DNA of 64,000 bases, taken from the NCBI GenBank assembly GCA_038063715.1, contig JBBTUO010000017.1, positions 22,518-86,517 of the forward strand. The letters run 5' to 3'. Both the position numbers and the translations under genes were made by a program. The notes beneath the pieces are model-generated. The model was not told the DNA's origin. It made no database searches and saw only the letters and a list, made by a program, of their open reading frames with translations. Shown here piece after piece: positions 1,285-19,821 of this stretch (the stretch's first letter is position 1; each line of letters opens with the position of its first letter). The DNA is from Patescibacteria group bacterium (GTDB lineage Bacteria; Patescibacteriota; Minisyncoccia; Phycocordibacterales; SIBU01).

Positions 1285-1393
1285 AATGGCCTCCTTTCTT
1301 TAGTTTGAGGTTAACTGCAACAAATCGAGTTCACCGTTGGCAAAGACCAGAGCGAACTCACCTGAACCTACCACAAAACAGAAAAATGTCAAG

Positions 1394-1437: not shown

Positions 1438-1458
1438 CTATCTGGGAATGACTTTGTC

Positions 1459-3915: not shown

Positions 3916-4632
3916 ATGAATCAGACTGCCTTGATGGCCAGCCTAAGAACAGGCCTTGGAAAAGTTTATCGGCCCCCAACTGCAATTGGCGGCCATGACA
4001 TTCAACACATAGAACGGCTACTCCTCATGTATCGGGAAATCAGCGAACTCATACCGGGTGTAAGTGAGTTTGAATACGAGATTGCAGTATGGCTTCACAA
4101 CCTTGACCGTTACCCGGCACTTCTTGCAAGTAGCGGCGCTTTAAACCTGACCTGTCTCATACACCTCTATCTCGCTCCAGGAAAGCTTGAGCCAGAGACC
4201 ACAGAGCGGATAATCACCGCTGTGATGGAACACTCCAAAAAGGATGACGGGACAAACGACTCGCCACTTTTGCAAGCATTACGACTTGCCGATAAGTGGG
4301 ATAGAATAGGTATACTTGGAATCACGGACAGTTTTTCCTGGAAAGGGCCACAACTGCCTGCATACGAAAAAACCGGTTTTGGTTATGGTAGCACAGCCGA
4401 AGGTTCCATGACATGTCACTACCAAAACTTCTACCGGGTGCTTGAGTGGTACACAATGTATCCACTCATACGTGAACTGGTGCGACGCAAACCACACCGA
4501 TTTGAACATCTGCTAGCCTGCATCAGAATGTTCGCACGAGAAGTATCGGAAGCACAAGATGTGCCGAACACTGTTGAAGATGACATTGCACGTTGTCTCG
4601 GTAATTTTTACCCTCAGTGGCATCCCAAATGA
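3916..4632 (+). CDS. Hypothetical protein (possible HD-domain-like metal-dependent hydrolase)
   Basis: 238 aa ORF of moderate GC. It has His/Asp-containing motifs (GGHDIQH, LHNLDR) that only weakly resemble an HD domain. A clear hairpin terminator follows it. Confidence 0.35.
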   Translation: MNQTALMASLRTGLGKVYRPPTAIGGHDIQHIERLLLMYREISELIPGVSEFEYEIAVWLHNLDRYPALLASSGALNLTCLIHLYLAPGKLEPETTERIITAVMEHSKKDDGTNDSPLLQALRLADKWDRIGILGITDSFSWKGPQLPAYEKTGFGYGSTAEGSMTCHYQNFYRVLEWYTMYPLIRELVRRKPHRFEHLLACIRMFAREVSEAQDVPNTVEDDIARCLGNFYPQWHPK

Positions 4633-4645: not shown

Positions 4646-4683
4646 ACCCTCTTGTTACCAAATAACGAGAGGGTTTTTCTTTT
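4646..4683 (+). terminator. Rho-independent terminator
   Basis: accctct-(15 nt loop)-agagggt is followed by tttttctttt immediately after the stop at 4632. Confidence 0.6.
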
Positions 4684-4716
4684 AAAAGCTTTCTAAATAT
4701 TGCCAAATGAACCTAT

Positions 4717-4745
4717 TTGACACCTTTTGACACTTTTAGTATTAT
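4717..4745 (+). promoter_or_regulatory. Sigma70-type promoter TTGACA-N17-TATTAT with the ATG only 6 nt after the -10, implying a leaderless mRNA
   Basis: TTGACA at 4717-4722, a 17-nt spacer, then TATTAT at 4740-4745. The ATG of the HTH gene is at 4752. Confidence 0.5.
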
Positions 4746-5046: not shown

Positions 5047-6162
5047 ATGAAAAAAGAAAAAAATACAACAGCCAAATCGGGAAATGGAATTAAAAAAGCG
5101 TTCATCACCGGCATCACGGGTCAGGACGGTTCTTACCTAACCGAACTGCTTTTGGAAAAGGGGTACGAGGTTCACGGCCTTATCCGACGCGTTTCAACTT
5201 TTAACACTGGCCGTATCGAACATCTATACCAGGATCCTCATATAAAAGGTACACGCTTATTCCTACATTACGGCGACCTATCGGACGCGAGCAACATCAA
5301 AAAACTGATCTTTACCCTCTCTCCCGATGAGGTCTACAACCTTGGAGCTCAATCCCATGTTAAGGTGTCTTTCGACATGGCTGAATACACCGGAGACATC
5401 ACTGGTCTCGGTGCATTACGCGTACTCGAAGCGGTGAAAGACTTTCAGTTACAGACCGGTAAAAAAGTAAAATTTTATCAGGCATCATCCTCCGAGATGT
5501 TCGGCTCTGCCCTACCCCCTCAAAATGAAAAAACCTCCTTCGCTCCTCGCAGTCCCTACGGTGTCGCCAAAACATTTGCCTACTATGGCACGGTGAACTG
5601 CAGAGAGTCGTACGGAATTTATGCCGTAAACGGTATTCTATTCAATCATGAAAGCCCTCGCCGAGGAGAAACATTCGTCACCCGAAAAATCACTCAAGCG
5701 GTGGCGCGCATCAAGCTCGGCCTTCAAGACACTCTCTATTTGGGAAACTTAGACGCACTACGTGACTGGGGCCATGCTCGTGACTATGTATCCGCAATGT
5801 ATCTTATGATGCAACAGTCAAAACCAGAAGATTATGTTATTGCGACAGGAACACAACATTCGGTACGAGAATTTTGTGAATTAGCCTTTAAGGAAATCAA
5901 CATCAACCTGGAGTGGCGAGGAAAAGGCGATGCGGAACAAGGTGTTGATCCGAAAACCGGCAAGGCGCTTGTACAAATAGACAAACGCTATTTCCGACCC
6001 GCTGAAGTCAACTCACTTATGGGCGATGCTAAAAAGGCATTAAAGGATTTGGGTTGGAAGCCGAAAATCAGTTTCCAGGAATTGGTCAAGGAAATGGTAG
6101 CATCGGACCTAACGGAAGAATCAAAAAAACATATCCTAGCGGCCAGCGGTAAGAAAAAGTAA
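5047..6162 (+). CDS. gmd: GDP-mannose 4,6-dehydratase
   Basis: [33 protein letters not shown]-terminus, a [10 protein letters not shown] catalytic motif, 371 aa. Confidence 0.93.
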
Positions 6163-6168
6163 AGACTG

Positions 6169-7101
6169 ATGGAAAAGAATTCCAAAATCTACATTGCCGG
6201 ACATCTTGGCCTAGTAGGAAGCGCTATTACTCGGGCGCTTGTTTCCCGCAATTTTACCAATCTTGTATTAAAAACAAGAGCTGAGCTTGATTTGCTTGAC
6301 CAGACGGCAGTTGAAAAATTTTTTCAAAAGGAAAAACCTGAATATGTATTTTTGGCTGCCGCAAAGGTTGGCGGTATCATGGCCAACAAAACTCATCCAG
6401 CTGAGTTTATTTATGAAAATCTTCTAGTCCAAGCACATGTTTTGGAGCAAGCTAGAATTAACGGCGTTAAAAAACTTTTATTCCTCGGGAGCTCCTGCAT
6501 TTATCCTCGTCTTTCCGAACAACCCATCAAAGAAGAATATTTTTTATCTGGAGATCTTGAACCAACTAATCGCGCCTATGCCATTGCCAAAATCGCTGGT
6601 ATTGTGACCTGTCAATCTTACAATGCAGAGTACGGCACAAATTTTATTTCTGCGATGCCGACAAATATGTACGGCCCAAATGATAATTTTGATCTTGAAA
6701 ATTCACACGTTCTTCCGGCACTGATTCGCAAATTTCATGAGGCGAAAATAAACGGTAAAAAAGAAGTGGTTTTGTGGGGAACTGGTGTAGCGCGGCGTGA
6801 GTTTCTTCATGTTGATGATTTTGCCGATGCCGCTCTTTTTTTGATGGATAAGTACGAAAGAACCGAAATTATCAATGTCGGAAGTGGAGAAGATGTTTCG
6901 ATAAAAGAATTGGCCGAGATAATAAGAAAAATTGTTGGGTTCTCCGGAACAATTTCATGGAATTCCGACAAGCCAGATGGGATCCTCCGAAAACTTCTGG
7001 ACGTCTCCAAAATTCATACTCTGGGCTGGAAACACACAATTCAACTGGAAGGAGGTATAGCGTCAACATACGCATGGTACGAGAAAAACAGTAACAAATA
7101 A
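6169..7101 (+). CDS. fcl: GDP-L-fucose synthase (GDP-4-keto-6-deoxy-D-mannose 3,5-epimerase/4-reductase)
   Basis: KIYIAGHLGLVGSAI N-terminus, GSSCIYP, YAIAK and MPTNMYGPNDNF motifs. It lies directly downstream of gmd. Confidence 0.9.
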   Translation: MEKNSKIYIAGHLGLVGSAITRALVSRNFTNLVLKTRAELDLLDQTAVEKFFQKEKPEYVFLAAAKVGGIMANKTHPAEFIYENLLVQAHVLEQARINGVKKLLFLGSSCIYPRLSEQPIKEEYFLSGDLEPTNRAYAIAKIAGIVTCQSYNAEYGTNFISAMPTNMYGPNDNFDLENSHVLPALIRKFHEAKINGKKEVVLWGTGVARREFLHVDDFADAALFLMDKYERTEIINVGSGEDVSIKELAEIIRKIVGFSGTISWNSDKPDGILRKLLDVSKIHTLGWKHTIQLEGGIASTYAWYEKNSNK

Positions 7102-7104
7102 AAA

Positions 7105-7923
7105 ATGACCGTCACAATTATAAAACCTAAAAAAACTTTCAGCCTCGAGGATATAAAAGAGGTCTGGCGCTACAAAGGGCTCCTGTATTTTTTTGTCTGG
7201 CGTGATCTAAAGGTACGTTACAAGCAAACGATTGTGGGTATTGGATGGGCGGTTTTCCAGCCTTTTATGACCATGGTGGTCTTCAGTGTGTTCTTCGGAA
7301 AGCTTATACAAGTTCCTTCGGATGGCATTCCCTACCCGATTTTTGTGTACACCGGACTGTTGTTCTGGCAGCTATTTTCAAGCGCACTAAACGACACCAG
7401 CAACTCTCTTATATCGAACTCATCAATCATAACAAAAGTTTATTTTCCAAGAATTATACTGCCCCTCGCCGATACCGCGAATAAGTTCGTAGACCTTTTT
7501 TTTGCAAGTCTGGCTCTCATCTATCTTATGTTTCATTATGGATATACTCCGCAACCAATTGGAATCATCTTAATACCTATTCTGCTCGTCATAACCTCAG
7601 CAACAGCAGTCGGGGTGGGGTTGATTCTAGCCTCAATCAACGTCAAATACCGCGACGTGCGCTATGTTATGCCATTTTTCATGCAGTTACTTCTTTTCTT
7701 GACCCCAGTCATCTACCCTTCGAGTATCGCGGGCAAATATGCATGGCTCTTATCATTTAACCCCATGACTGGGGTTATCAAGGCTGCGCGGGCGGGACTA
7801 CTTGGAACGGGACCGATCGGCTGGCATTCTCTTCTGATATCGGGAATAGCGGCATTAGTATTCCTTATTCTTGGAATTTTCTTCTTTAAAAAAACCGAAA
7901 GATACTTCGCAGATATCGTTTAA
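7105..7923 (+). CDS. wzm: ABC-2 type polysaccharide export permease
   Basis: 272 aa with 6 predicted TM segments and the ABC-2 family pattern. It is followed by the cognate ATPase. Confidence 0.85.
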   Translation: MTVTIIKPKKTFSLEDIKEVWRYKGLLYFFVWRDLKVRYKQTIVGIGWAVFQPFMTMVVFSVFFGKLIQVPSDGIPYPIFVYTGLLFWQLFSSALNDTSNSLISNSSIITKVYFPRIILPLADTANKFVDLFFASLALIYLMFHYGYTPQPIGIILIPILLVITSATAVGVGLILASINVKYRDVRYVMPFFMQLLLFLTPVIYPSSIAGKYAWLLSFNPMTGVIKAARAGLLGTGPIGWHSLLISGIAALVFLILGIFFFKKTERYFADIV

Positions 7924-7927
7924 TTAT

Positions 7928-9202
7928 ATGGCACCAATCATCGAAATAAAAAACCTAAGCAAACGCTACAATATCACCGGACGAAAACGGGGATACGTCG
8001 CATTGCGTGATGTTATTACGGAAAAATTACGGCATCCACTCACGGCGCTTTTAAATCTCGGTAGAAGTATGCTGGGTAAAAACGGAATGGAGATATTCTG
8101 GGCATTAAAAGATATAAACCTCAGTGTTGAAAGGGGTGAGGCAGTAGGTATCATTGGCGCGAACGGCGCTGGAAAATCAACTCTTCTCAAAATTCTCTCT
8201 CGCATCACGCCTCCCACGGAGGGTGAAATTCGGTTGAATGGCAAGCTTGCCTCACTCCTTGAAGTGGGAACAGGCTTTCATCCCGAACTTTCTGGACGAG
8301 AAAATATATATTTAAACGGGGCAATTCTTGGTATGACCCGAAAAGAAATTGCTGATAAATTCGATGACATTGTATCTTTTTCGGGCATCGGAGATTTTAT
8401 TGATACACCTGTCAAACGGTACTCATCTGGTATGTATGTCAGGTTAGCGTTTTCAATTGCGGCTCATATTGAACCGGATATTCTTCTCGTAGACGAAGTA
8501 CTTGCTGTAGGCGACGCTGAGTTCCAAAAAAAATGTCTTGGAAAAATGGAAGAGGTTACCGGTAAGGCTGGAAGAACAATTCTGTTTGTCAGCCACAATA
8601 TGGCTGCAGTGACGAAACTCTGCCCCACTTCAGTCTTGCTATCGCACGGCCGAATCGTGATGACCGGCAAAACAGAGGATGTCATAAATTATTATCTGGC
8701 CGAGGAGTATAAAAAAAGTTCTGACAGCGAGAAACTGCTTCCATTCAAAAATCAAGACCTTGTTATCGAAAAATTTGATGTAACCCAAAACGGCACGCGA
8801 ACCGAGACTCTCGATGGCGACCGTCCATTTGAAATCACAATTAAATTTGAAACTCTGGTCGACCTAACCCAATTCCGCCTTGGAATTTATGTTAAAAACA
8901 GCTTGGGAAGTGTCTTATTCCGATCAACCACCTCTGACTGGAAACCTGAACTAGAAAAAATAAAACGCGGACGGCACAGTGCCACCTTGGTATTCCCCGG
9001 AAAACTTCTAATGCCGGGCAGTTATTTTTTGAACATTCACGCAGGACGCTTTAGCATCATAAATTACATGGCCAAACAGAGTTTGGATCGTACGATAGTC
9101 GTCGGTGCTTCGGCCTACTTCAATCAAGCTCACCCCGCCGAGCGAACCGAAGGCGAGCTTCTGCTTCCGTCCGAATGGAAACTAGAGTCAGTACATAATT
9201 GA
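7928..9202 (+). CDS. wzt: Polysaccharide ABC transporter ATP-binding protein with an extended C-terminal (putative glycan-terminus-binding) domain
   Basis: Walker A GANGAGKST, signature YSSGMYVRLAF, Walker B ILLVDE. About 200 extra C-terminal residues sit beyond the NBD. I chose the ATG at 7928 to avoid overlapping wzm. Confidence 0.85.
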   Translation: MAPIIEIKNLSKRYNITGRKRGYVALRDVITEKLRHPLTALLNLGRSMLGKNGMEIFWALKDINLSVERGEAVGIIGANGAGKSTLLKILSRITPPTEGEIRLNGKLASLLEVGTGFHPELSGRENIYLNGAILGMTRKEIADKFDDIVSFSGIGDFIDTPVKRYSSGMYVRLAFSIAAHIEPDILLVDEVLAVGDAEFQKKCLGKMEEVTGKAGRTILFVSHNMAAVTKLCPTSVLLSHGRIVMTGKTEDVINYYLAEEYKKSSDSEKLLPFKNQDLVIEKFDVTQNGTRTETLDGDRPFEITIKFETLVDLTQFRLGIYVKNSLGSVLFRSTTSDWKPELEKIKRGRHSATLVFPGKLLMPGSYFLNIHAGRFSIINYMAKQSLDRTIVVGASAYFNQAHPAERTEGELLLPSEWKLESVHN

Positions 9203-9212
9203 GACCTTATCT

Positions 9213-9986
9213 ATGCCGAAAATACTTAACAAACTTAAATGCTCAATTCTGCAAACCTCCTTCAAAGCTGGCGAAGGCCACATAGCCAGCGCTTTTTCAA
9301 TTTTGGATATTTTATGGGTTCTCTATGATCAAATTCTAAAAATTGATCCTCTCAAACCGCGCGATGAAAAAAGGGACAGGTTCTTTCTATCAAAGGGCCA
9401 TGCATCACTAGGATTATACGCGGTCCTGGCGGAAAAAGGTTTTTTTGACAAAGAAGAATTTGAAAGATTCGGAACTTTTGACAGTATTTTAGGCGGACAT
9501 CCGGACAGAAATAAAGTTCCAGGAGTTGAAGCCTCCACCGGATCATTAGGACACGGCTTTCCTATGGCGGTAGGTACGGCGCTAGGGCTTAAAATTACAG
9601 GGTCACAAGCAAAAGTTTTTGTCCTAATCGGCGACGGCGAAGCCAATGAAGGTGCGGTTTGGGAATCGGCACTCCTCGCCTCTCATCACAACTTAACAAA
9701 TCTGATCTGTATAATTGATTACAATCATTCAACTGACAGAGCGCTCCACATTGGCGATTTGGCAAAAAAATTTGAAGCTTTCGGCTGGCGCACGATTTCT
9801 ATTGACGGTCATAACCATAAAGAAATACTCGAATCCCTAAAATTAAAGCTTTCGGAAAAACCGACTGCAATTATTGCCACGACCATTAAAGGTTATGGAT
9901 CAAAAATGATGGAGAATAATCCTGCGTGGCATCGAAAGGCACCGACAAAAAATGAACTTGAAATAATTTTGAAGGAATTAACATGA
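9213..9986 (+). CDS. Transketolase, N-terminal (ThDP pyrophosphate-binding) subunit
   Basis: GHIASAFSILDIL, GHASLGLYAVL and GSLGHGFPMAVGTA..GDGEANEG motifs. This is the split two-gene transketolase form. Confidence 0.88.
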   Translation: MPKILNKLKCSILQTSFKAGEGHIASAFSILDILWVLYDQILKIDPLKPRDEKRDRFFLSKGHASLGLYAVLAEKGFFDKEEFERFGTFDSILGGHPDRNKVPGVEASTGSLGHGFPMAVGTALGLKITGSQAKVFVLIGDGEANEGAVWESALLASHHNLTNLICIIDYNHSTDRALHIGDLAKKFEAFGWRTISIDGHNHKEILESLKLKLSEKPTAIIATTIKGYGSKMMENNPAWHRKAPTKNELEIILKELT

Positions 9987-10867
9987 ATATGCGACAGCAA
10001 TTAATTCAAAGCGGAGAGGCGCTTCTAGCTAAGGACCAGAAGCTGGTTATTCTGCTTGGCGATATGAGTGTGTTCGGCTTCCGAGAAGCTTTCAAAAATT
10101 TCCCGACGAGAATATACAATATAGGAATACTTGAACAATCTACGATAGGATTGGCAGCTGGCCTCGCAATGACAGGAATGGTTCCGATTGTCCATACAAT
10201 TGCTCCTTTTCTAGTTGAACGCTCTTTGGAACAACTGAAAGACGATTTCGGTTATCAAAAGTTGGGAGGAAATTTTGTCAGCATTGGAGCCTCATACGAC
10301 TACTCTGCTTTAGGCTGTACTCACCACTGCCCCGGGGATGTCGGCATCTTGAAAAATATTCCCGGAATGGAAATCGTGGTTCCAGGGACAGCCGCGGAAT
10401 TTGACTCTCTGCTTCGCCAAGCCTACGACAACGGACGGCCAACTTATTATCGACTAAGCGAACAAGAAAACACCGAAAGCTACCCAGTTAAATTTGGCAA
10501 AGCACAAGTAATTAAAAAAGGTAAAAAAGCGACGATCATCGCAGTCGGTCCAGCGCTTAGGCCGTCGCTTGAAGCGTGTGCAAATGATGATGTCACTATA
10601 CTTTATTACACAACCGTCGCTCCTTTTGATAGTGACACCTTGCGAAACAATTGCTCCTCAGGAAGAGTTTTACTATGTGAGCCATACTACACTGGAACCC
10701 TCACAAATGACATCATGTCTGCCCTAAATCCTCTGCCAATTGTAATTGAAAACGTCGGGGTACCACGAGAATTCTTAACCCATTACGGCAAAGCTTCCGA
10801 GCAAGACGCTTACATTGGGATGACCGGTTCAGCCATCCATTCAAAACTAAAAAAACTACTGTTATGA
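9983..10867 (+). CDS. Transketolase, C-terminal (pyrimidine-binding/C-terminal) subunit
   Basis: 294 aa with the pattern of the transketolase central and C-terminal domains. Its start overlaps the stop of the N-terminal subunit gene by 4 nt. Confidence 0.85.
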   Translation: MNMRQQLIQSGEALLAKDQKLVILLGDMSVFGFREAFKNFPTRIYNIGILEQSTIGLAAGLAMTGMVPIVHTIAPFLVERSLEQLKDDFGYQKLGGNFVSIGASYDYSALGCTHHCPGDVGILKNIPGMEIVVPGTAAEFDSLLRQAYDNGRPTYYRLSEQENTESYPVKFGKAQVIKKGKKATIIAVGPALRPSLEACANDDVTILYYTTVAPFDSDTLRNNCSSGRVLLCEPYYTGTLTNDIMSALNPLPIVIENVGVPREFLTHYGKASEQDAYIGMTGSAIHSKLKKLLL

Positions 10868-11823
10868 ACAAGCCCAATTCAAAAACATCTTCGATGGTAA
10901 AATTCCCCAAGTTGCTAATAACTGGTGGAAACGGACTGGTTGGCACAGCTATTAAAAAGCTTGGAATACCAGACGCGGTTTTTGTCGCAAGAGCAGACGC
11001 TGATTTGCGAGATTTTAAGCTAACGAAGGCCCTGTTTGAAAAAATTAAACCGACACACGTCATCCATTTAGCCGCACATGTCGGAGGTGTCGGCGGAAAC
11101 AGCCTTCATCCTGGTGAATACTTCCGTGACAATATTCTAATAAATACCAATGTCTTGGAGGCCGCACGGTTAACGGGCGTAAAAAAACTCGTATCAATGC
11201 TCTCAACCTGCATTTTTCCTGATCCAGCAATATTCCCACTGAAAGCTGAAGACTTGCATAAAGGTCAACCGCATCCATCAAATTTCGGCTATGCCTATGC
11301 TAAAAGAATGCTTGAGGTTCAAACTAACGCCTACAGAAAAGAGTGGGGTTGCGATTATATTACTCTAGTAGGCACTAACATTTATGGTCCGAATGATAAT
11401 TTCAGTTTGGAAAACGGACATGTCGTCTCCTCGCTCGTACATAAGTGTTTTTTAGCAAAGAAAAATAAAACCGATCTTGAGGTTTGGGGAAGTGGAAAAC
11501 CGCTCCGTGAATTTGTTTTGTCTGACGACATCGCGAAACTGACCGTTTGGGCTATTGAAAGCTACGACGAAGCGGAGCCTCTGATGCTATCCTCCGGCAT
11601 TGAGACTAGCATAAAGGAACTGGTGCTTCTAGTAGCGGAAAAAATGAAATTCACAGGACGGGTTATTTTTGACACTAAAAAAACCGACGGACAACTCCGA
11701 AAACCGTCTGACACTACAAAATTTTTAAAATACCTCCCAGAATTTAAATTTACCCCTGTTGAGGATGGTGTAGAAAAAACCGTTAATTGGTTCGTGGAGA
11801 ATTATCCCAATGTCAGAAAATAA
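10864..11823 (+). CDS. NAD(P)-dependent epimerase/reductase, second GDP-L-fucose-synthase-like paralog (GDP-4-keto-6-deoxyhexose epimerase/reductase family)
   Basis: LLITGGNGLVGTAI, LSTCIFPD, YAYAKRMLEV and GTNIYGPNDNF motifs parallel Fcl. Confidence 0.7.
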   Translation: MNKPNSKTSSMVKFPKLLITGGNGLVGTAIKKLGIPDAVFVARADADLRDFKLTKALFEKIKPTHVIHLAAHVGGVGGNSLHPGEYFRDNILINTNVLEAARLTGVKKLVSMLSTCIFPDPAIFPLKAEDLHKGQPHPSNFGYAYAKRMLEVQTNAYRKEWGCDYITLVGTNIYGPNDNFSLENGHVVSSLVHKCFLAKKNKTDLEVWGSGKPLREFVLSDDIAKLTVWAIESYDEAEPLMLSSGIETSIKELVLLVAEKMKFTGRVIFDTKKTDGQLRKPSDTTKFLKYLPEFKFTPVEDGVEKTVNWFVENYPNVRK

Positions 11824-12916
11824 AATGGGAAAAAAAATTCTAATCCAAGTGCCCAGTCCGTTTGCCGCAAATAACGCGATCTTTGAACAAGACGCAAATA
11901 ATATGACAGAGCCATGGCGTGTTTTAAAGGCGCGCCTAAATTCTCTCGGCTACGAAGTGCTAACAGCCGATAATAACTCGCTTGAAGACTGTGAATGGCT
12001 TTTGTTTATTGACTCGCTTTCGCTCTACGGCACCGCTCAGCGTGGAGGTTTTAAAAATTTTGCACGCAGAATTTCAAATAAAATTTTCAAAGTGAAAGAT
12101 AAAAATCCATGGCCAAATCGGCCTTTGTATGAAGAAGCTATGGCGCGAGGAATGGAAAACCGGATGGCGTTGTTTCTTTGGGAAGGCGCCGTAGTGAGTC
12201 CATACAACTATATGCCGAAAACCTGGAAAAAGTTTAACCGAATCTTTACTTGGAAAGATGATTTAGTTGATAACAAAAAATTCTTCAAATTTTATCTGCC
12301 GACACCGACTCAAAATGGAATAGTAAAACCTCTGCCATTCGCACAAAAAAAACTGCTAGTAAACATTTCAGCGAATAAGTGGTACCCAGGCGAAAATGAG
12401 CTTTTCAGTGCCAGGGTGAGAACCAGTCTGTATTTTGATCGACACTATCCCAATGATTTTGATCACTTTGGAGCGCGATGGCATACGGCGGTTACACGCT
12501 GGCAGAAATACTTTCCAGCTCTTATACCAAAATTTACTACTTACCGCGGTAAATCAGGAAACAAGATGGAAACACTTTCTAAATATAAATTCTCACTATG
12601 TTATGAAAACGTTTCTGACAATAAAGGTTATATTACCGAAAAAATCTTTGACATCCTTCAGGCAAAATCCGTGCCAGTTTATTGGGGGGCACCAAACATT
12701 GAGGAGTACGTCCCCTCTACTGCTTTCGTAGATCGAAGAAAATTCATAAATGATGAGGCGTTAGCAAAATACTTAAAAAATGTTTCCGAGGAAAACTATG
12801 AAAAAATGGTTGAGGCAGGACAAAAATATCTTGAAACCGAAAACTGTAAAAAATTCTTTTCGGAATATTTTGCTAAACGAGTAATTGAGGTTTTAAATAT
12901 CACGAGAAAAAACTAG
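11810..12916 (+). CDS. GT10 family alpha-1,3-fucosyltransferase-like glycosyltransferase
   Basis: The C-terminal motif KFSLCYENVSDNKGYITEKIFDILQAKSVPVYWGAPNIEEY matches the conserved GT10 alpha-1,3-FucT motif known from Helicobacter FutA. Confidence 0.8.
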   Translation: MSENKMGKKILIQVPSPFAANNAIFEQDANNMTEPWRVLKARLNSLGYEVLTADNNSLEDCEWLLFIDSLSLYGTAQRGGFKNFARRISNKIFKVKDKNPWPNRPLYEEAMARGMENRMALFLWEGAVVSPYNYMPKTWKKFNRIFTWKDDLVDNKKFFKFYLPTPTQNGIVKPLPFAQKKLLVNISANKWYPGENELFSARVRTSLYFDRHYPNDFDHFGARWHTAVTRWQKYFPALIPKFTTYRGKSGNKMETLSKYKFSLCYENVSDNKGYITEKIFDILQAKSVPVYWGAPNIEEYVPSTAFVDRRKFINDEALAKYLKNVSEENYEKMVEAGQKYLETENCKKFFSEYFAKRVIEVLNITRKN

Positions 12917-12917
12917 T

Positions 12918-13931
12918 ATGAAAGAGCCTTTGACTAAAAACCAAAAACTTGCTCGCAATTCTCTTCTTTCAAAAATTGAAACTGGTGAATACGCGCTTAG
13001 AGCTAACCCTTGCATTTGTGGAAAGATGATGGATATTCTGATTGCAAATCGAGACCGTTATAATATTTCCATACGCACCGTGCTTTGTCAGGCCTGTGGT
13101 CTGGTTCGCTCCGATCCTTATTATAACACCGTCACTCTCTCACACTTTTATAATGATGAATATCGAAAGCTCTACGCCATCAAAGCTGGGTCGGTCGAAG
13201 ATTTTTTTATTGAACAAACTGGTTTTGGAAAGCATATTTATGATTTCTTAGCCGAAAAGATTTTCAAGCGCGAAATCAAGGGAAAAAATGTCCTTGAAAT
13301 CGGTTGTGGTGCAGGAGGAATTCTAGAAACCTTTAAAAAAATGGGGAATGAAGTTGCCGGTTGTGATTATGGTGAAAGTTACATCCAGTTTGGGAAAAGT
13401 AAAGGATTAAATCTTTTTGCTGGTGGTTCGGATACTCTTTTAAACACGGGTTTAGCAGACATTATAATTCTCAACCACACATTTGAGCATATGACTCAAC
13501 CAACTAAAGAGTTGGAGCAAATTAAAAAATTACTAGCACCAAACGGCATACTATATATATCGTTGCCGGGAATTTATTCAATTCATGATACTTATGCGGG
13601 TAAACTTATTAATGGGTACTTGCAAAATGCCCACGTTTGGTATTTCACTCTGAAAACCTTAACTTCCCTGCTCTCTAAATGTGGCTTTCAGCTTATAGCT
13701 GGAAATGAAATAATTATGGCGGTTTATAAAATTGGCCTGACAAGCCAAAAAATGGAAGTCGAAAGCCCTGAAAAAATCCTATACTACCTTAAAAAAACCA
13801 AAAAATTACGCTGGTACTACGGCTTAAAAAAGTTCTCCCTCCGTCATTCAGCCTTTGAAACATTGAGACGATTTGGACCGTTATATAAGATGACCCGAAC
13901 TATTTATAGAAAAGCTAAAAAAATACAATGA
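12918..13931 (+). CDS. Class I SAM-dependent methyltransferase with an N-terminal Cys-rich (zinc-ribbon-like) region
   Basis: VLEIGCGAGGILE motif I. A CxC...CQACG cysteine cluster lies upstream. Confidence 0.7.
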   Translation: MKEPLTKNQKLARNSLLSKIETGEYALRANPCICGKMMDILIANRDRYNISIRTVLCQACGLVRSDPYYNTVTLSHFYNDEYRKLYAIKAGSVEDFFIEQTGFGKHIYDFLAEKIFKREIKGKNVLEIGCGAGGILETFKKMGNEVAGCDYGESYIQFGKSKGLNLFAGGSDTLLNTGLADIIILNHTFEHMTQPTKELEQIKKLLAPNGILYISLPGIYSIHDTYAGKLINGYLQNAHVWYFTLKTLTSLLSKCGFQLIAGNEIIMAVYKIGLTSQKMEVESPEKILYYLKKTKKLRWYYGLKKFSLRHSAFETLRRFGPLYKMTRTIYRKAKKIQ

Positions 13932-14608
13932 TAAAGGGACAAAAAATCGTGGCACTCGTGCCTCTTAGGGGCGGATCAAAATCTATCCCTTACAAAAATA
14001 TAAAAAAAATCTCTGGCAAGCCTTTAGCTTACTGGTGCCTTTTTGCTGCTACCAATTCAAAATATATTGATGAAGTGTGGGTTTCGACAGATGATTCGAA
14101 AATAAAAAAAGTGGTTTCAGGACTCGGACTTGACGTGAAAGTGCTAGACCGACCAGAAGCATTGGCCACGGACAAAGCATCGACTGAATCGGTGATGCTC
14201 CATTTTGCCGAGAAGGTCACCTTTGATATTCTGATTACCGTTCAAGCAACTTCCCCACTAACGACCAGTGACAATTTAGACAAAGCAATCGAAATTCTTT
14301 TAGAGGGTGGACATGATAGCTTGGTCACGGTGGTTAAAGAAAAAAGTTTCTTGTGGTCACCAGAAGGCAAAGCTCTAAATTACGACCCTAGAAATCGACC
14401 GATGAGGCAGGACTGGCCAGGGACATTTTCCGAAAATGGAGCTTTCTACATTACCAAAAAAAATATTCTAGAAACTGAAAAATGTCGACTCGGAGGGCGC
14501 GTCAAAGTCTTTGAGATGCCAGCCGAAACGACATTGCAAATTGACGAAGCGGAAGACTGGCGAAAAGTTGCAAAATTACTAAAAATGAGAAAGAATTATC
14601 TTTCCTAA
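13928..14608 (+). CDS. Acylneuraminate (CMP-ulosonic acid) cytidylyltransferase family protein
   Basis: IVALVPLRGGSKSIPYKNIKKISGKPL is the hallmark N-terminus of NeuA/PseF/LegF-type cytidylyltransferases. Confidence 0.8.
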   Translation: MIKGQKIVALVPLRGGSKSIPYKNIKKISGKPLAYWCLFAATNSKYIDEVWVSTDDSKIKKVVSGLGLDVKVLDRPEALATDKASTESVMLHFAEKVTFDILITVQATSPLTTSDNLDKAIEILLEGGHDSLVTVVKEKSFLWSPEGKALNYDPRNRPMRQDWPGTFSENGAFYITKKNILETEKCRLGGRVKVFEMPAETTLQIDEAEDWRKVAKLLKMRKNYLS

Positions 14609-14615
14609 AGAATCT

Positions 14616-15497
14616 ATGAAATACAAACAGCCAAAAATAGTCGCGGAAATCGGTTGCAATCATATGGGTGATTTTGAATTGGCGAAAGAATTGATTTTCT
14701 TAGCCAAAGAAACTGGAGCGCATGTGGCAAAATTTCAAAAAAGAAATCCGCGTCAACTGCTGACAAAAGAACAGTATAACTCTCCTCACCCAGTGCCCTA
14801 TCACTCCTTCGGAAAAACTTACGGGGAGCACCGCGAGTTTCTAGAGCTCACGAAGGAACAGCATCGCAAACTTAAAAATTACTGCGACCGTCTTCATATT
14901 GAGTACGCAACTTCTGTTTGGGATGTGCAGTCCGCGCGAGAAATTATTTCTTTAAAACCTAAATATATTAAAGTTCCCTCGGCTTGCAACAACAACTACG
15001 AACTTTTGAAGGTCCTGCGGGATAACTACAAAGGTGACGTCCATATATCTTTCGGTATGACAACGCACGATGAAGAAGAGTCGATTGTGAAATTTTTTGA
15101 GGAAAAGAATCAGGCCAAAAAACGCTTGGTTATCTACTCCTGCACCTCTGGCTACCCAGTTGATTTTAATGACGTCTGTCTTTTGGAAATTTCTAGAGTT
15201 GAAAAAACCTATGGTGATAGAGTAAAGGAAATTGGCTTTTCTGGGCACCACGCTGGCATCGCCATCGATATCGCAGCTTATGCACTGGGTGCCACTTGGA
15301 TTGAAAGACACTTCACAAAGGACAGAATGCTCAAGGGCACCGATCATGCAGCTTCGCTCGAGCCACAGGGCTTGAAAACTCTTGCCAGAAATCTTGGCGC
15401 TACCTTTACGTCCCTGACATATAAAAAATCAGAAATTTTGGAAGTGGAAAAGGTTCAGCGAGAAAAATTAAAGTATCGTTCAAAATCAGAAAAATAA
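14616..15497 (+). CDS. N-acetylneuraminate synthase (NeuB/PseI/LegI) family PEP-condensing enzyme, short form lacking a recognisable C-terminal SAF domain
   Basis: KIVAEIGCNHMGDFELAKELIFLAKETGAHVAKFQKR is the NeuB-family TIM-barrel N-terminus. At 293 aa it is shorter than canonical NeuB (about 345 aa). Confidence 0.78.
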   Translation: MKYKQPKIVAEIGCNHMGDFELAKELIFLAKETGAHVAKFQKRNPRQLLTKEQYNSPHPVPYHSFGKTYGEHREFLELTKEQHRKLKNYCDRLHIEYATSVWDVQSAREIISLKPKYIKVPSACNNNYELLKVLRDNYKGDVHISFGMTTHDEEESIVKFFEEKNQAKKRLVIYSCTSGYPVDFNDVCLLEISRVEKTYGDRVKEIGFSGHHAGIAIDIAAYALGATWIERHFTKDRMLKGTDHAASLEPQGLKTLARNLGATFTSLTYKKSEILEVEKVQREKLKYRSKSEK

Positions 15498-15498
15498 A

Positions 15499-16164
15499 AT
15501 GAAAATTTTAAACAAATTTAATAGTGAAAACAGTTTTGACTACGAGAACGGCTTTTACCTTACAGCTAAACCTGACAGACTCGGCAAGCTTTTGGCGCAT
15601 TATGAACTTTATAAAAAAGTTTGCGACCTACCGGGCGCGATTGTTGAATGTGGTGTTTTCAAGGGCGCATCTCTTATAAGATTCGCTACATTCCGAAATC
15701 TTTTTGAAGCGGAACATTCCCGAAAAGTTATCGGTTTTGACATGTATGGAAAATTCCCGCAAACTAAATTCGAAAATGATAAAAAATACCTGAAGAAATT
15801 CATTGAAGCCGCTGGTGAAGAAAGTATTTCAGAGACAGAACTGACGCAGATTTTTGAATTGAAGGATATTAAAAATTTTGAATTAGTTAAGGGTGATATC
15901 AACAAGACTGTTCCAGACTACGTAAAAAACAATCCTCATCTTAAAATTTCCCTACTACATATTGATACTGACGTATATGAACCGGCGGTCACAATCCTGC
16001 GTGAAATGTATGACCACGTTGTAAAAGGTGGAATCATCGCCTTTGATGACTACGGCACTTTCCCTGGCGAGACACAGGCGGTAGACGAATTCTTTAAAGA
16101 TAAAAAGGTAAAAATCCAGAAATTCCCCTTCTCACACATTCCTTCTTTTGTCGTAAAACCATAA
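15499..16164 (+). CDS. TylF/MycF (macrocin O-methyltransferase) family SAM-dependent O-methyltransferase
   Basis: IVECGVFKGASLIRFA and DTDVYEPAVTILREMYDHVVKGGIIAFDDY are characteristic of the TylF family. Confidence 0.78.
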   Translation: MKILNKFNSENSFDYENGFYLTAKPDRLGKLLAHYELYKKVCDLPGAIVECGVFKGASLIRFATFRNLFEAEHSRKVIGFDMYGKFPQTKFENDKKYLKKFIEAAGEESISETELTQIFELKDIKNFELVKGDINKTVPDYVKNNPHLKISLLHIDTDVYEPAVTILREMYDHVVKGGIIAFDDYGTFPGETQAVDEFFKDKKVKIQKFPFSHIPSFVVKP

Positions 16165-16170
16165 ACTCTC

Positions 16171-17031
16171 ATGAAGTCCACAATAAAAGAAATGCCGATT
16201 GCCGGTCAATTATTAAAAAACCTGGGAGCATTGAACCGAAATATCAAGCATGTTGTCCAATCCTCCCTGTTCTATCTAAAAAATAAAAAGCTTCTTTCGT
16301 TGAACAAAGTCTTAGCAGGAAGTGCTGCGGGTCGACGGGCTTTCATTCTTGCAACTGGCCCATCGATTAAAACTCAAGATCTTTCGCGCCTACAAGGAGA
16401 ATTATGCGTGAGCGTCAGCAATTTTTTCGTTCATCCTGACTTTAAAAAAATCAGTCCGGAATATCACATCTTTCCCGCCTCTCACAAACCTATAACAGTT
16501 GAACAAATGTTAGACTTGCTCCGCGACGCTGAAAAACATTTTCCTGATGGACAAAAAATCTTTATGTCTGCAACAGATAAATATCTCGTTGAAAAATTCG
16601 GCGTGTTTAAAAAACAAAAAGTCTACTATTATTTGATCTCCAGCAGTCCCTTGACTGCACAAGGTATGATTAATTTCTCAAAAAGGCTCCCGATAATACA
16701 GACCAGCCCGCACATAGCCGTATATCTCTCCCTGTATCTGGATGTAAAAGAAATTTATCTTTTGGGTGTGGACCATGACTGGATTTTACATATAGGCGAA
16801 ACGAGACATTTTTATGATGAGAAAAAAAGCGCACTTGCCCAAACCGGCTATAACGAGTGGTTAGAAAGCGATTTAGGTACCGAGTGTGAAGCGTATGGGC
16901 GCCTGTGGAAAATATATCGGCAAATAAGAACCTACGCGACCAAACATAAAGTTGTCATAATTAATGCAACAACCGGTAGTTTGCTTGACGTGTTCCCTAG
17001 AGCCAATCTGGAAGAAATTTTAAAAAAATAA
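16171..17031 (+). CDS. DUF115 (Maf/MptE-like) family protein, putative glycosyl/ulosonic-acid transferase
   Basis: AFILATGPSIKTQDLSRLQGELCVSVSN matches the GPSL....N Rossmann-like core of DUF115 (motility-accessory-factor family). I have no direct family confirmation. Confidence 0.4.
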   Translation: MKSTIKEMPIAGQLLKNLGALNRNIKHVVQSSLFYLKNKKLLSLNKVLAGSAAGRRAFILATGPSIKTQDLSRLQGELCVSVSNFFVHPDFKKISPEYHIFPASHKPITVEQMLDLLRDAEKHFPDGQKIFMSATDKYLVEKFGVFKKQKVYYYLISSSPLTAQGMINFSKRLPIIQTSPHIAVYLSLYLDVKEIYLLGVDHDWILHIGETRHFYDEKKSALAQTGYNEWLESDLGTECEAYGRLWKIYRQIRTYATKHKVVIINATTGSLLDVFPRANLEEILKK

Positions 17032-19815: not shown

Positions 19816-19821
19816 AATCAT

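What the first reader, a model, noticed from the sequence alone, without database searches (positions are those of the whole stretch)
9213..10867. Split two-subunit transketolase embedded in the middle of a sugar-nucleotide/glycosyltransferase operon
Central-metabolism transketolase is normally a single polypeptide. Here a split N/C pair is translationally coupled, with a 4-nt overlap. It sits between the O-PS ABC transporter and a GDP-hexose epimerase/fucosyltransferase, in a co-directional operon running from 5047 to 21347. The cluster also contains a C-methyltransferase for branched sugars and a GDP-heptose trio lacking GmhA. One role is therefore two-carbon (ThDP-dependent ketol) transfer onto a keto-sugar, giving a two-carbon-branched or extended sugar. 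An alternative role is local supply of sedoheptulose-7-P or pentose-P precursors for the heptose/ulosonic branches.
Basis: partly seen in the sequence, partly recalled or inferred. Interest (0 to 1): 0.6.

Follow-up and report, generated by a model that had tools for sequence, protein, structure and literature searches.

The report
Sugar-tailoring transketolase-like enzyme pair
Two overlapping genes in a cell-surface sugar operon of an uncultivated Patescibacteria bacterium encode a transketolase-like enzyme that lacks the sugar-phosphate-binding residues of the metabolic enzyme and belongs to an uncharacterised family found almost only in glycan gene clusters, so it most likely builds an unusual sugar.

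Summary
ORFs 9213-9986 (257 aa, ThDP/PP domain) and 9983-10867 (294 aa, Pyr + TKC domains) form a split transketolase-like pair joined by an ATGA overlap. They lie in a gap-free + strand operon (5047-21347) between wzm/wzt and an Fcl paralog plus a GT10 glycosyltransferase.

It is not a canonical transketolase. The cofactor and donor-side residues are kept (H26, H66, H100, H261, E411, H473). The acceptor and phosphate-channel residues are replaced (S385->F, H461->G/Y, D469->L/gap, R520->E). This signature holds across the whole family sampled. E. coli TktA and the authentic split TK of Carboxydothermus both keep the canonical residues.

The family is monophyletic in 100/100 bootstraps. It comprises about 218 50%-identity clusters. 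In 24/24 loci examined it sits in glycan clusters and next to an NAD(P) oxidoreductase. One locus is in cultured Methylomonas, in an O-antigen-like cluster.

The best reading is a ThDP-dependent two-carbon (ketol) transferase acting on a non-phosphorylated, probably GDP-linked, keto sugar. The acceptor and regiochemistry are inferred, not shown. The precursor-supply reading is disfavoured. Split TKs have been proposed for sugar branching in miharamycin and amipurimycin biosynthesis, but none has been characterised.

The parts
9213..9986 (+). tkN: N-terminal (PP, ThDP-diphosphate-binding) subunit of the transketolase-like enzyme, 257 aa
   Evidence: Pfam Transketolase_N 6.7e-41. PDB 6yak_A 1.6e-68. 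GDG...N ThDP/Mg motif and H26/H66/H100/H261 equivalents conserved.
9983..10867 (+). tkC: Pyr + TKC-domain subunit, 294 aa (or 292 aa if translation starts at ATG 9989). Carries the altered substrate channel.
   Evidence: Pfam Transket_pyr and Transketolase_C. PDB 6yaj only 7.2e-26. E411, F437 and H473 kept. S385->F31, H461->G102 (or Y), D469->L110 (or gap), R520->E160.
9983..9986 (+). ATGA start/stop overlap between tkN and tkC (translational coupling)
   Evidence: Read directly from the sequence. SD-like GAAGGAA at 9972-9978. Alternative start at ATG 9989.
10864..11823 (+). fcl2: second, FX (eukaryote)-type GDP-4-keto-6-deoxyhexose 3,5-epimerase/4-reductase. Its start overlaps the tkC stop. 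It is the oxidoreductase partner of the pair in this window.
   Evidence: PDB human GDP-L-fucose synthase 4bkp 4.6e-98, against E. coli 1bsv 1.5e-48. Fcl residues S107, C109, Y136, K140 and H179 all conserved. An fcl2-type gene (58-70% identity to this one) lies near the pair in 8 other loci.
11810..12916 (+). GT10-family (fucosyltransferase-type) glycosyltransferase, the likely transferase for the GDP-sugar product
   Evidence: Pfam Glyco_transf_10 1.2e-16. Orthologues downstream of the pair in 8 loci, plus GT10-like c31 in L004 and L012.
12918..13931 (+). SAM-dependent methyltransferase (Methyltransf_23), a possible tailoring step
   Evidence: Pfam. 61% identical orthologue in the same position in L002. 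Methyltransferases are recurrently linked or fused to the TK pair in relatives.
5047..6162 (+). gmd: GDP-mannose 4,6-dehydratase, source of GDP-4-keto-6-deoxy-D-mannose (the candidate acceptor)
   Evidence: NCBIfam TIGR01472 558 bits, above the 415 cut-off. A gmd within 10 kb of the pair in 11 of 24 loci, plus a probable gmd-fcl fusion (inferred from ORF length; only the fcl half was matched) in L017.
6169..7101 (+). fcl: bacterial-type GDP-L-fucose synthase
   Evidence: NCBIfam GDPFucSynFcl 472.7 bits, 5.7e-142. 54% identical to E. coli Fcl.
7105..7923 (+). wzm: ABC-2 permease of the glycan exporter
   Evidence: Pfam ABC2_membrane. 87-89% identical orthologues in L002-L004.
7871..9202 (+). 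wzt: ABC ATPase with a Wzt_C glycan-binding domain, immediately upstream of tkN (the listed TTG start is probably too early)
   Evidence: Pfam ABC_tran and Wzt_C. wzm-wzt lies beside the TK pair in 13 of 24 loci.
4646..4745 (+). Terminator-like hairpin (4646-4674) followed by the best promoter-like site (4717-4745). Probable operon boundary and start.
   Evidence: Consensus scan only.

Best explanation
tkN and tkC assemble into a heteromeric enzyme of the transketolase superfamily (alpha2beta2 by analogy with the Carboxydothermus split TK). It is a dedicated sugar-tailoring carboligase, not the pentose-phosphate enzyme.

Shown:
- The ThDP/Mg site (GDG...N), the cofactor-activating Glu (E411 equivalent) and the histidines that handle a ketol donor in TK (H26, H100, H261, H473) are intact.
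- The residues that bind the substrate phosphate and the acceptor C2-OH (S385, H461, D469, R520) are replaced by aromatic, Gly, Leu and Glu residues throughout a monophyletic family.
- That family occurs in glycan clusters, always next to an NAD(P) oxidoreductase.

Inferred mechanism:
1. The ThDP ylide takes a dihydroxyethyl (glycolaldehyde) unit from a ketol donor, either hydroxypyruvate or a ketose.
2. It adds this unit to a non-phosphorylated carbonyl of a nucleotide sugar. The most likely acceptor here is GDP-4-keto-6-deoxyhexose made by Gmd (5047), giving a C-glycolyl-branched GDP-6-deoxyhexose.
3. The new ketone is then reduced or the sugar epimerised, here by the FX-type Fcl paralog translationally coupled to tkC. 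In most relatives an extra UXS-like SDR and a methyltransferase also act.
4. The product is transferred by the GT10 enzyme into a glycan exported by Wzm/Wzt.

The identity of the acceptor, the carbon attacked and the order of the steps are not established.
For: - Domains and structural homologues.
- Active-site mapping on E. coli TktA, with residue numbering verified and the alignments. HMMER alignment to the authentic split TK 6yaj.
- Signature at positions 358/381/385/411/437/461/469/473/520: the family has R-D-[F/Y/H/G]-E-F-G-L-H-[E/G/..] across 133 family sequences (the window's tkC plus 132 relatives). E. coli TktA and ChTK have R-D-S-E-F-H-D-H-R.
- N subunits: HHHGDNH in 19 of 26, with a single substitution in the other 7.
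- H100 is Phe in DXS, and H100F/L shifts TK toward pyruvate (PMC7661550).
- The evolved E. coli TK variant S385Y/D469T/R520Q moves specificity from phosphorylated to non-phosphorylated, non-polar acceptors (PMC5073344 abstract). The natural substitutions fall at the same three positions.
- NJ tree: family monophyletic in 100/100 bootstraps, apart from EcTktA plus ChTK.
- The N subunit is much closer to true TK (1.6e-68) than the substrate-channel subunit is (7.2e-26).
- Context in 24 loci: the pair is always adjacent. An oxidoreductase flanks it in every locus: a UXS-like SDR in 16, a classical SDR in 2, a Zn-ADH in 3, and an Fcl paralog or another SDR in the rest. Fcl-family genes occur in 16 loci, wzm/wzt in 13, gmd in 11, a divergent methyltransferase in 12.
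- The same cassette lies in an O-antigen-like cluster (Wzx, GT2, GT11) of cultured Methylomonas sp. AM2-LC and in a Bacteriovoracaceae MAG.
- A sister clade has an SDR-tkN-tkC-methyltransferase core among C-methyltransferases, B12-radical-SAM enzymes and E1 alpha/beta pairs. It includes one TK-C::methyltransferase fusion.
- fcl2 keeps all Fcl catalytic residues and is FX-like.
- No curated NCBIfam family reaches its cut-off for either subunit.
Against: - There is no biochemical evidence for any member. No glycan structure is known for any organism carrying the cassette; only one cultured host was found.
- fcl2 retains the full 3,5-epimerase/4-reductase apparatus. That apparatus needs a free 4-keto group, which fits awkwardly with a C-4 branch made before fcl2 acts. 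The attack could therefore be elsewhere, or fcl2 could act first.
- The UXS-like SDR and the methyltransferase that accompany the pair in most relatives are absent from this window, so this pathway may differ or be truncated.
- R358, one phosphate ligand of TK, is conserved, so a phosphorylated or diphosphate-bearing ligand is not excluded.
- TKs using ketone acceptors have never been demonstrated (PMC12247030).
- The alignment around positions 461-469 differs between methods: Y and a gap, G and L. No method places His or Asp there.
Confidence: 0.5

Rival explanations
1. The pair uses pyruvate or another 2-oxo acid as donor, as DXS and E1 enzymes do. It would install an acetyl or 1-hydroxyethyl branch, making it a functional analogue of YerE/YerF or of the E1 alpha/beta-type (alphaKADH2) sugar-branching enzymes.
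For: tkC scores about as well against DXS (about 1e-19; NCBIfam DXS 76 bits) as against TK models. A reductase partner is always adjacent, as YerF is to YerE (PMC12247030). E1 alpha/beta pairs co-occur in sister-clade loci.
Against: H100 is invariant in all 26 N subunits. DXS has Phe at this position, and H100F/L is what shifts TK toward pyruvate (PMC7661550). H26, H261 and H473, which serve the hydroxymethyl and C3-OH groups of ketol donors, are kept. In loci that hold both a TK pair and an E1 pair, two enzymes with the same function would be redundant.
Confidence: 0.15
2. The pair extends a sugar chain by two carbons at an aldehyde, which is native TK chemistry, rather than branching a ketone. 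The acceptor would be a free or nucleotide-linked aldose or dialdose lacking a phosphate. The product would be a heptulose or octulose derivative that is then reduced, activated and incorporated as a higher-carbon sugar.
For: Aldehyde acceptors are the only ones proven for TKs (PMC7661550; PMC12247030). Heptose-type genes recur near the pair in a subset of loci: a GHMP kinase, a GmhB-like phosphatase, cytidylyltransferase-like or HldE-like genes, and a GT9 heptosyltransferase. This subset is the window, L005, L012, L016, L019 and L029. No GmhA was seen in the annotated window ORFs or in these loci. An intact fcl2 would still have its 4-keto substrate under this reading.
Against: No enzyme that would generate a sugar aldehyde is conserved with the pair. 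Heptose-type genes are present in only about a quarter of loci. The tightest partners are nucleotide-sugar SDRs and Fcl-type enzymes of the GDP-6-deoxyhexose branch, which has no aldehyde.
Confidence: 0.15
3. It is simply the organism's housekeeping split transketolase, for the non-oxidative pentose-phosphate pathway, and happens to lie in the glycan operon.
For: CPR genomes use split TK genes for central metabolism (PMC7143001). No other TK lies in the 64-kb window or in about 0.5 Mb of related loci. Cofactor and donor residues are intact.
Against: H461, D469, R520 and S385 are lost family-wide, whereas the authentic split TK keeps them. The clade is separate in 100/100 bootstraps. The pair is never next to rpe, rpi or aldolase and always lies in glycan clusters. 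It is present in Methylomonas, a type I methanotroph; by established knowledge this depends on a canonical TK for the RuMP cycle (the canonical gene itself was not retrieved).
Confidence: 0.06
4. It supplies sedoheptulose-7-P or pentose-P locally for the heptose and ulosonic-acid branches of the island.
For: A heptose-type trio (27446-29725) and NeuB/CMP-transferase genes (13928-15497) lie in the same island.
Against: Same residue and phylogeny evidence as for the housekeeping rival. NeuB and the CMP-transferase accompany the pair in only 3-4 of 24 loci, and heptose-type genes in about 5. The heptose genes lie in a different transcription unit, about 17 kb away.
Confidence: 0.04
5. It works in the cleavage direction, removing a ketol side chain from a sugar or other glycan substituent, in the manner of the split-TK steroid desmolase DesAB.
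For: Split TK homologues can act as C-C lyases on non-phosphorylated substrates (the C. scindens paper PMC3735941, listed; its text was not read). Donor-cleavage residues are intact.
Against: A biosynthetic operon with Gmd, Fcl, glycosyltransferases and an exporter gives no obvious ketol-bearing substrate. Reductase and methyltransferase partners fit elaboration of a newly added group better.
Confidence: 0.04

Closest known systems
Canonical transketolase, including the authentic split-gene TK of Carboxydothermus hydrogenoformans (PDB 6yak/6yaj; PMC7661550)
   Same: Same PP / Pyr+TKC two-gene split without the ~70-aa linker. Same ThDP/Mg motif, activating Glu, and donor-side His26/66/100/261/473. 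The N subunit matches at 1.6e-68.
   Different: The C subunit matches at only 7.2e-26. S385, H461, D469 and R520 are replaced (F, G/Y, L/gap, E), whereas ChTK and E. coli TktA keep them. The family forms a separate clade in 100/100 bootstraps. It lies in glycan clusters, not in pentose-phosphate context.
Split-gene transketolases proposed to transfer a hydroxyacetyl unit onto a keto sugar in miharamycin and amipurimycin biosynthesis, plus 13 putative Streptomyces homologues (review PMC12247030, section 2.3)
   Same: A split TK paired with an oxidoreductase inside a sugar-modifying cluster. The proposed chemistry is C2 ketol transfer to a ketone, giving a tertiary alcohol.
   Different: Those are actinomycete secondary-metabolite clusters acting on nucleoside sugars, and none has been characterised in vitro. 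The present family lies in surface-polysaccharide (Wzm/Wzt or Wzx) clusters of Patescibacteria and other, mostly uncultivated, lineages.
YerE/YerF (yersiniose A) and the E1 alpha/beta-type 'alphaKADH2' sugar-branching enzymes (aldgamycin, kibdelomycin)
   Same: ThDP-dependent C2 addition to an NDP-4-keto-deoxyhexose, followed by ketoreduction, within glycan or antibiotic sugar clusters.
   Different: They belong to different ThDP superfamily branches (decarboxylase/ALS type, and E1 type). They use pyruvate as donor, giving an acetyl branch. The present enzyme keeps TK's His100, which points to a hydroxylated C2 unit.
1-Deoxy-D-xylulose-5-phosphate synthase (DXS)
   Same: The Pyr/TKC part of tkC scores against DXS about as well as against TK.
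   Different: DXS is a single chain, has Phe in place of His100, and binds glyceraldehyde-3-phosphate through Arg residues. Neither feature is found here.
Laboratory-evolved E. coli TK S385Y/D469T/R520Q (PMC5073344)
   Same: The same three positions are changed in nature in this family (S385F/Y/H, D469L, R520E). In the engineered enzyme these changes shift acceptor preference from phosphorylated to non-phosphorylated, non-polar carbonyls.
   Different: The engineered enzyme is a single-chain protein acting on small aldehydes. The natural family additionally lacks H461.
Split TK genes AMIS_56710/56720 in the Actinoplanes missouriensis wps-2 exopolysaccharide cluster (PMC13390465)
   Same: A TK-N / TK-C pair of similar size inside a Wzx/Wzy polysaccharide cluster, alongside a methyltransferase and aminotransferases.
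   Different: Function is unassigned there too. Relatedness to this family was not tested.

Membership tests
Transketolase superfamily (ThDP-dependent, TK/DXS/E1 fold) | PP domain with the GDG(X)n-N ThDP/Mg2+ motif | tested here: met
   GDGEANEG...DYN aligns to E. coli D155/N185. Conserved in 26/26 N subunits. Pfam Transketolase_N 6.7e-41.
Transketolase superfamily (ThDP-dependent, TK/DXS/E1 fold) | Pyr domain with the cofactor-activating Glu (E411) and the aromatic residue stacking on the pyrimidine (F437), plus a TKC domain | tested here: met
   E51 and F76 of tkC align to E411 and F437. The Glu is present in all 25 most frequent signature patterns. Pfam Transket_pyr and Transketolase_C.
Canonical transketolase (EC 2.2.1.1) | Donor-side catalytic histidines H26, H100, H261 and H473 (E. 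coli numbering) | tested here: met
   All four present in the window protein. H26 and H100 are present in 26/26 N subunits, H261 in 23/26 (Thr in 3). H473 is present in all 25 most frequent tkC signature patterns.
Canonical transketolase (EC 2.2.1.1) | Substrate-phosphate-binding residues R358, S385, H461 and R520 | tested here: not met
   Only R358 (R4 of tkC) is kept. S385->F31, H461->G102 (or Y103 in another alignment), R520->E160. E. coli TktA and ChTK have S/H/R at these positions.
Canonical transketolase (EC 2.2.1.1) | D469, which binds the acceptor C2-OH and sets stereospecificity | tested here: not met
   Leu110 (HMMER and the L-INS-i alignment) or a gap. Leu in almost all family members sampled.
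Canonical transketolase (EC 2.2.1.1) | Groups phylogenetically with housekeeping TKs and lies in pentose-phosphate gene context | tested here: not met
   Family monophyletic in 100/100 bootstraps, apart from EcTktA plus ChTK. No curated TK model reaches its cut-off; the best is 246 bits against 488. Neighbours in 24/24 loci are glycan genes.
Canonical transketolase (EC 2.2.1.1) | Catalyses Xu5P + R5P/E4P interconversion | not testable with these tools
   Requires an enzyme assay.
DXS | Single polypeptide, Phe in place of TK His100, pyruvate as donor | tested here: not met
   Two genes, with His at position 100 in 26/26 (PMC7661550). Best DXS model 76 bits against cut-offs of 395 or more.
Sugar-branching split TKs (miharamycin/amipurimycin type; proposed only) | A split TK next to an oxidoreductase in a sugar-tailoring cluster | tested here: met
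   An oxidoreductase lies adjacent in every locus. Here it is fcl2, whose start overlaps the tkC stop. Description of the family from PMC12247030.
Sugar-branching split TKs (miharamycin/amipurimycin type; proposed only) | [quoted passage not shown] | not tested
   The activity is unproven even for the type examples.

The most novel reading that the evidence does not exclude
This pair represents a large, horizontally mobile and so far uncharacterised enzyme family: nucleotide-sugar C2 (glycolaldehyde) carboligases of the transketolase fold. With an adjacent reductase, and often a methyltransferase, they would make glycolyl- or dihydroxyethyl-branched (or two-carbon-extended) 6-deoxy sugars for the cell-surface glycans of Patescibacteria and other uncultivated bacteria and archaea. 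That would be the first transketolase shown to use a ketone or nucleotide-sugar acceptor, and it would point to a new class of surface monosaccharide.
Probability: 0.4. Interest if true: 0.75.

Novelty: new variant of a known kind. Interest (0 to 1): 0.58.

Why it matters
- **Enzymology.** If the inference holds, it adds a third ThDP enzyme lineage, the TK type, to the known routes for carbon-branched or extended sugars (YerE type and E1 type). It would also supply natural TKs whose acceptor channel is already remodelled at the positions protein engineers target (385/469/520). That is useful for making hydroxylated tertiary alcohols.
- **Biology.** Genome-reduced CPR bacteria, thought to live attached to hosts, devote a conserved and horizontally shared cassette to an exotic surface sugar. 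That sugar is a likely determinant of host recognition or phage and immune evasion.
- **Annotation.** Metabolic reconstructions that count any 'transketolase N/C' gene pair as evidence for the pentose-phosphate pathway in CPR and other MAGs will be misled by this family. The G461/L469/E520 signature gives a simple filter.

Tried and rejected
- **A second TK, or orthologues of the relatives' UXS-like SDR (c3) and methyltransferase (c6), in the window.** tblastn found none. No canonical TK lies in about 0.5 Mb of related loci either. Whether this genome has another TK stays open.
- **A cultured organism with a known glycan structure.** Three protein searches returned almost only MAG and metagenome proteins. 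The sole isolate is Methylomonas sp. AM2-LC, and I know of no published glycan structure for it.
- **Literature on transketolase genes in O-antigen, rfb or capsule clusters**. No functional assignment was found. My recollection that Leptospira rfb loci carry TK genes could not be verified and is not used.
- **NeuB/CMP-transferase or the heptose trio as functional partners.** Rejected as general partners because they accompany the pair in only 3-5 of 24 loci. The heptose link is kept as a minority rival.
- **A Stetter-type addition of the C2 unit to the Gmd 4-keto-5,6-ene intermediate,** which would give a 6-deoxy-octose and keep fcl2's 4-keto substrate. It is chemically attractive but has no supporting evidence, and the dehydratase-like SDR is absent from this window. 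It is mentioned only as a variant of the chain-extension rival.
- **Curated specialised families** (NCBIfam). No model reached its cut-off.
- **Structure prediction and fold search.** Not run. The fold is not in doubt, and single-chain models would not identify the acceptor.
Full report
**1. What is in the sequence**

- The first is a transketolase N-terminal ThDP-binding domain (Pfam 6.7e-41). Its best solved relative is the N chain of the Carboxydothermus hydrogenoformans split transketolase, 6yak, at 1.6e-68.
- The second carries the pyrimidine-binding and TK C-terminal domains. It is much more divergent: 6yaj at 7.2e-26, and DXS at about 1e-19.

The junction reads AAC-ATGA-AT-ATG, so ATG 9983 overlaps the TGA stop by 4 nt. 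A GAAGGAA run lies 5-11 nt upstream. The identical public protein (P0001, a Patescibacteria MAG, 90-kb contig) is annotated from the next ATG, 9989. The coupling is tight either way.

tkC's stop overlaps the start of the next gene, at 10864. The operon claim holds. Eighteen co-directional ORFs run from 5047 to 21347 with gaps of at most 10 nt. They are preceded by a terminator-like hairpin (4646-4674) and the best promoter-like site in the region (4717-4745).

**2. Surroundings**

The operon order, is:

- gmd and fcl
- wzm and wzt (wzt carries a Wzt_C domain)
- tkN and tkC
- an Fcl paralog ('fcl2')
- a GT10 glycosyltransferase
- a methyltransferase
- a PseF-like cytidylyltransferase
- a short NeuB
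- a TylF-type O-methyltransferase
- a Maf/MptE-like protein
- an FkbM methyltransferase
- an FdtA ketoisomerase
- a DegT aminotransferase

The rest of the window, to about 57 kb, is one large glycan island. It contains:

- many GT1, GT2 and GT4 glycosyltransferases, and a GT11
- two carbamoyltransferases
- PMT-like transferases
- an rmlB-rmlA-rmlD-C-methyltransferase operon
- a heptose-type trio

The heptose assignments are weak: HddA 166 bits against a 600 cut-off.

**3. Is it the housekeeping enzyme?**

Being split is not informative. Authentic split TKs exist (PMC7661550), and a complete CPR genome has its TK genes in an operon with an aldolase (PMC7143001). So I tested residues, phylogeny and context.

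*Residues.* I retrieved E. coli TktA and confirmed its numbering. Against it, the N subunit keeps H26, H66, H100, G114, D155, N185 and H261. The C subunit keeps (R358), D381, E411, F437 and H473. It has lost S385, H461, D469 and R520. In the HMMER alignment to the real split TK these positions are F31, G102, L110 and E160, whereas ChTK has S, H, D and R. A MAFFT alignment places a Tyr and a gap at 461 and 469. No alignment supplies a His or Asp.

The signature is family-wide. Over 133 family sequences (the window's tkC, 112 representatives of 50%-identity clusters and 20 sister-clade proteins), the dominant pattern at 358/381/385/411/437/461/469/473/520 is R-D-[F/Y/H/G]-E-F-G-L-H-[E/G/..]. Only E. 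coli TktA and ChTK show RDSEFHDHR. All 26 N subunits keep H26 and H100.

*Phylogeny.* A neighbour-joining tree separates the family from E. coli TktA plus ChTK in 100 of 100 bootstraps.

*Family size.* An exhaustive search finds 218 50%-identity clusters at E<=1e-30, against 3,548 at 1e-10.

*Curated models.* No curated NCBIfam TK or DXS model reaches its cut-off.

**4. Context elsewhere**

A scan of one genome per species returned 22 loci. Almost all are Patescibacteria. The rest are Syntrophobacteraceae, Ignavibacteriales and a gammaproteobacterium. Look-ups added cultured Methylomonas sp. AM2-LC (complete chromosome) and a Bacteriovoracaceae MAG. I clustered all ORFs of 24 loci (annotated).

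| Feature near the tkN-tkC pair | Loci (of 24) |
|---|---|
| tkN and tkC adjacent, wherever the contig allows | 24 |
| ~344-aa extended SDR immediately after the pair (closest to UDP-glucuronate decarboxylase, 2b69, 2.6e-34) | 16 |
| Fcl-family genes | 16 |
| wzm/wzt | 13 |
| Divergent ~316-aa SAM methyltransferase | 12 |
| gmd (plus a probable gmd-fcl fusion in L017, inferred from ORF length) | 11 |
| GT10 | 8 |

Where the extended SDR is missing, another oxidoreductase flanks the pair:

- a classical SDR (L008, L012)
- a Zn-ADH (L016, L018, L019)
- fcl2 itself (this window and its closest syntenic relative, L004)

In Methylomonas the cassette lies in an O-antigen-like cluster with Wzx, GT2 and GT11 genes.

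A sister clade, about 36% identical, is found in Nitrospirae, Rhodospirillaceae, Omnitrophica, Bacillota and archaea. It has the core SDR-tkN-tkC-methyltransferase. This core lies among sugar C-methyltransferases, B12-radical-SAM enzymes, E1 alpha/beta pairs, HldE-like genes and nucleotidyltransferases. One archaeal protein fuses TK-C to the methyltransferase.

None of the 24 loci shows pentose-phosphate genes next to the pair. No canonical TK lies in the window or in the flanks.

**5. The partner in this window**

fcl2 (10864-11823) keeps all catalytic residues of GDP-fucose synthase: S107, C109, Y136, K140 and H179. It is far closer to the human FX enzyme (4.6e-98) than to E. coli Fcl (1.5e-48). 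The upstream fcl is the bacterial type. The operon therefore encodes two epimerase/reductases for GDP-4-keto-6-deoxy sugars. One of them travels with the TK cassette: an fcl2-type gene, 58-70% identical, lies near the pair in 8 other loci.

**6. Mechanism**

*Shown.* This is a ThDP enzyme of the TK fold. Its cofactor and ketol-donor apparatus is intact. Its acceptor channel is remodelled and no longer phosphate-binding. It is dedicated to glycan clusters and coupled to a reductase.

*Inferred.*
1. It forms dihydroxyethyl-ThDP from a ketol donor. His100 argues for a hydroxylated C2 unit, because DXS has Phe at this position and H100F/L shifts TK toward pyruvate.
2. It adds the unit to a non-phosphorylated carbonyl of a nucleotide sugar.
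3. The substitutions at 385, 469 and 520 fall on the same positions that were changed to evolve E. coli TK from phosphorylated toward non-polar acceptors (PMC5073344).
4. The most economical acceptor here is the Gmd product, GDP-4-keto-6-deoxymannose or its 3,5-epimer.
5. The result would be a C-glycolyl branch that is then reduced, with transfer by the GT10 enzyme and export by Wzm/Wzt.

*Weak points.*
- An intact Fcl-type 4-reductase sits uneasily with a C-4 branch.
- TKs with ketone acceptors have never been demonstrated.
- The SDR and methyltransferase of most relatives are missing here.
- A minority of loci associate the pair with heptose-type genes, which keeps two-carbon chain extension alive as a rival.

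I put about 0.8 on 'specialised sugar-tailoring carboligase, not central TK'. I put about 0.3 on the specific C-4 glycolyl branch. The overall confidence of 0.5 covers the statement as written.

**7. Comparison with what is known**

[quoted passage not shown] The 2025 review (PMC12247030) says these enzymes, and 13 further putative ones, all come from Streptomyces. It also says none has been characterised and that the function 'is still pending'.

YerE/YerF and the E1-type enzymes do the analogous acetyl branching with pyruvate. A split TK pair was also noted, without a function, in an Actinoplanes exopolysaccharide cluster (PMC13390465).

The present family meets the superfamily criteria but fails two defining features of EC 2.2.1.1: the phosphate ligands and D469. 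It should not be filed as a transketolase proper. I rate it a new variant of a known kind. It is a natural, widespread, glycan-cluster lineage of TK-like carboligases with a diagnostic G461/L469/E520 signature, and it is almost entirely confined to uncultivated organisms.

**8. Verdict**

The precursor-supply alternative and the housekeeping reading are disfavoured.
- Interest is moderate to high (0.58). The finding is specific and testable, has practical consequences for annotation and biocatalysis, and would be a first if the acceptor is a nucleotide keto-sugar.

Noticed in passing
window 10864-11823 (and 6169-7101): The operon carries two GDP-fucose-synthase genes of different ancestry. The upstream one is the bacterial type. 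The one coupled to tkC is much closer to human FX/TSTA3 (4.6e-98) than to E. coli Fcl (1.5e-48). The FX-type copy travels with the TK cassette into Methylomonas and Bacteriovoracaceae.
   Followed up: partly
window 1459-3747 (- strand): A 762-aa protein with a Wzy_C/O-antigen-ligase domain plus C-terminal TPR repeats. A member of the same ORF cluster lies beside the cluster in 4 other Patescibacteria loci (57-63% identical in L002 and L004, 37-39% in L008 and L009). It may ligate the ABC-exported glycan to a lipid or protein acceptor in organisms not known to have an outer membrane.
   Followed up: no
L002 10882-11901, L025 10884-11924, L026 8612-9661 (absent from the window): In 16 of 24 loci the TK pair is followed by a UXS-like extended SDR (~344 aa). 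In 12 loci a divergent ~316-aa SAM methyltransferase is also present. This window and its closest relative L004 lack both, so there are two versions of the cassette.
   Followed up: partly
L031 8001-9626 (protein P0194); L029, L030, L021: A sister clade of the TK pair has an SDR-tkN-tkC-methyltransferase core. One archaeal TK-C is fused to the methyltransferase. These loci also hold PDH-E1 alpha/beta pairs, sugar C-methyltransferases and B12-radical-SAM enzymes, so several C-C or C-methyl forming enzymes lie in one sugar cluster.
   Followed up: partly
window 27446-29725: A heptose-type trio: a GmhB-like phosphatase, a nucleotidyltransferase and an HddA-like GHMP kinase. All match below curated cut-offs, and no GmhA/SIS isomerase was found among the annotated ORFs of the window. 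The first two ORFs overlap by about 210 nt as listed, so one start is probably mis-called. Similar genes recur near TK pairs in L005, L012, L016, L019 and L029.
   Followed up: partly
window 14616-15497, 13928-14608, 16171-17031: A short NeuB-family synthase (293 aa, ending before the last ~55 positions of the NeuB model, 271/329) lies with a PseF-like cytidylyltransferase and a weak Maf/MptE-like protein. This suggests a nonulosonic or Kdo-like acid, possibly the chain-terminating cap read by the Wzt_C domain.
   Followed up: no
window 22393-24258 and 33025-34770: Two NodU/CmcH-type carbamoyltransferases lie in the same glycan island, suggesting O-carbamoylated sugars.
   Followed up: no
window 50802-51707: A UDP-glucose/GDP-mannose dehydrogenase homologue of only 301 aa, with part of the N-terminal domain and the central domain and no C-terminal domain detected. 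The next ORF (50401-50802) is a GtrA-like membrane protein, not the missing part. The gene may be truncated or degenerate.
   Followed up: no
window 1-2000: G+C is 0.516 in the first 2 kb against about 0.42 in the rest. ORF 118-1284 (388 aa) has no Pfam match. The sequence of the 3916-4632 product (238 aa, no Pfam match) recurs in L003.
   Followed up: no
window 55818-59076: The glycan island ends near a secreted-type protein with Lamin-tail and PKD domains, followed by a TraG/VirD4-like coupling ATPase. This hints at a neighbouring type IV secretion or competence-like module.
   Followed up: no
family of tkC (P0001-P0120, P0391-P0477): tkC orthologues are 63-80% identical across Patescibacteria, Omnitrophota, Bacteriovoracaceae, Ozemobacteraceae and Methylomonas. 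That is far more than expected for such distant lineages, and it implies horizontal spread of the cassette under strong constraint.
   Followed up: partly
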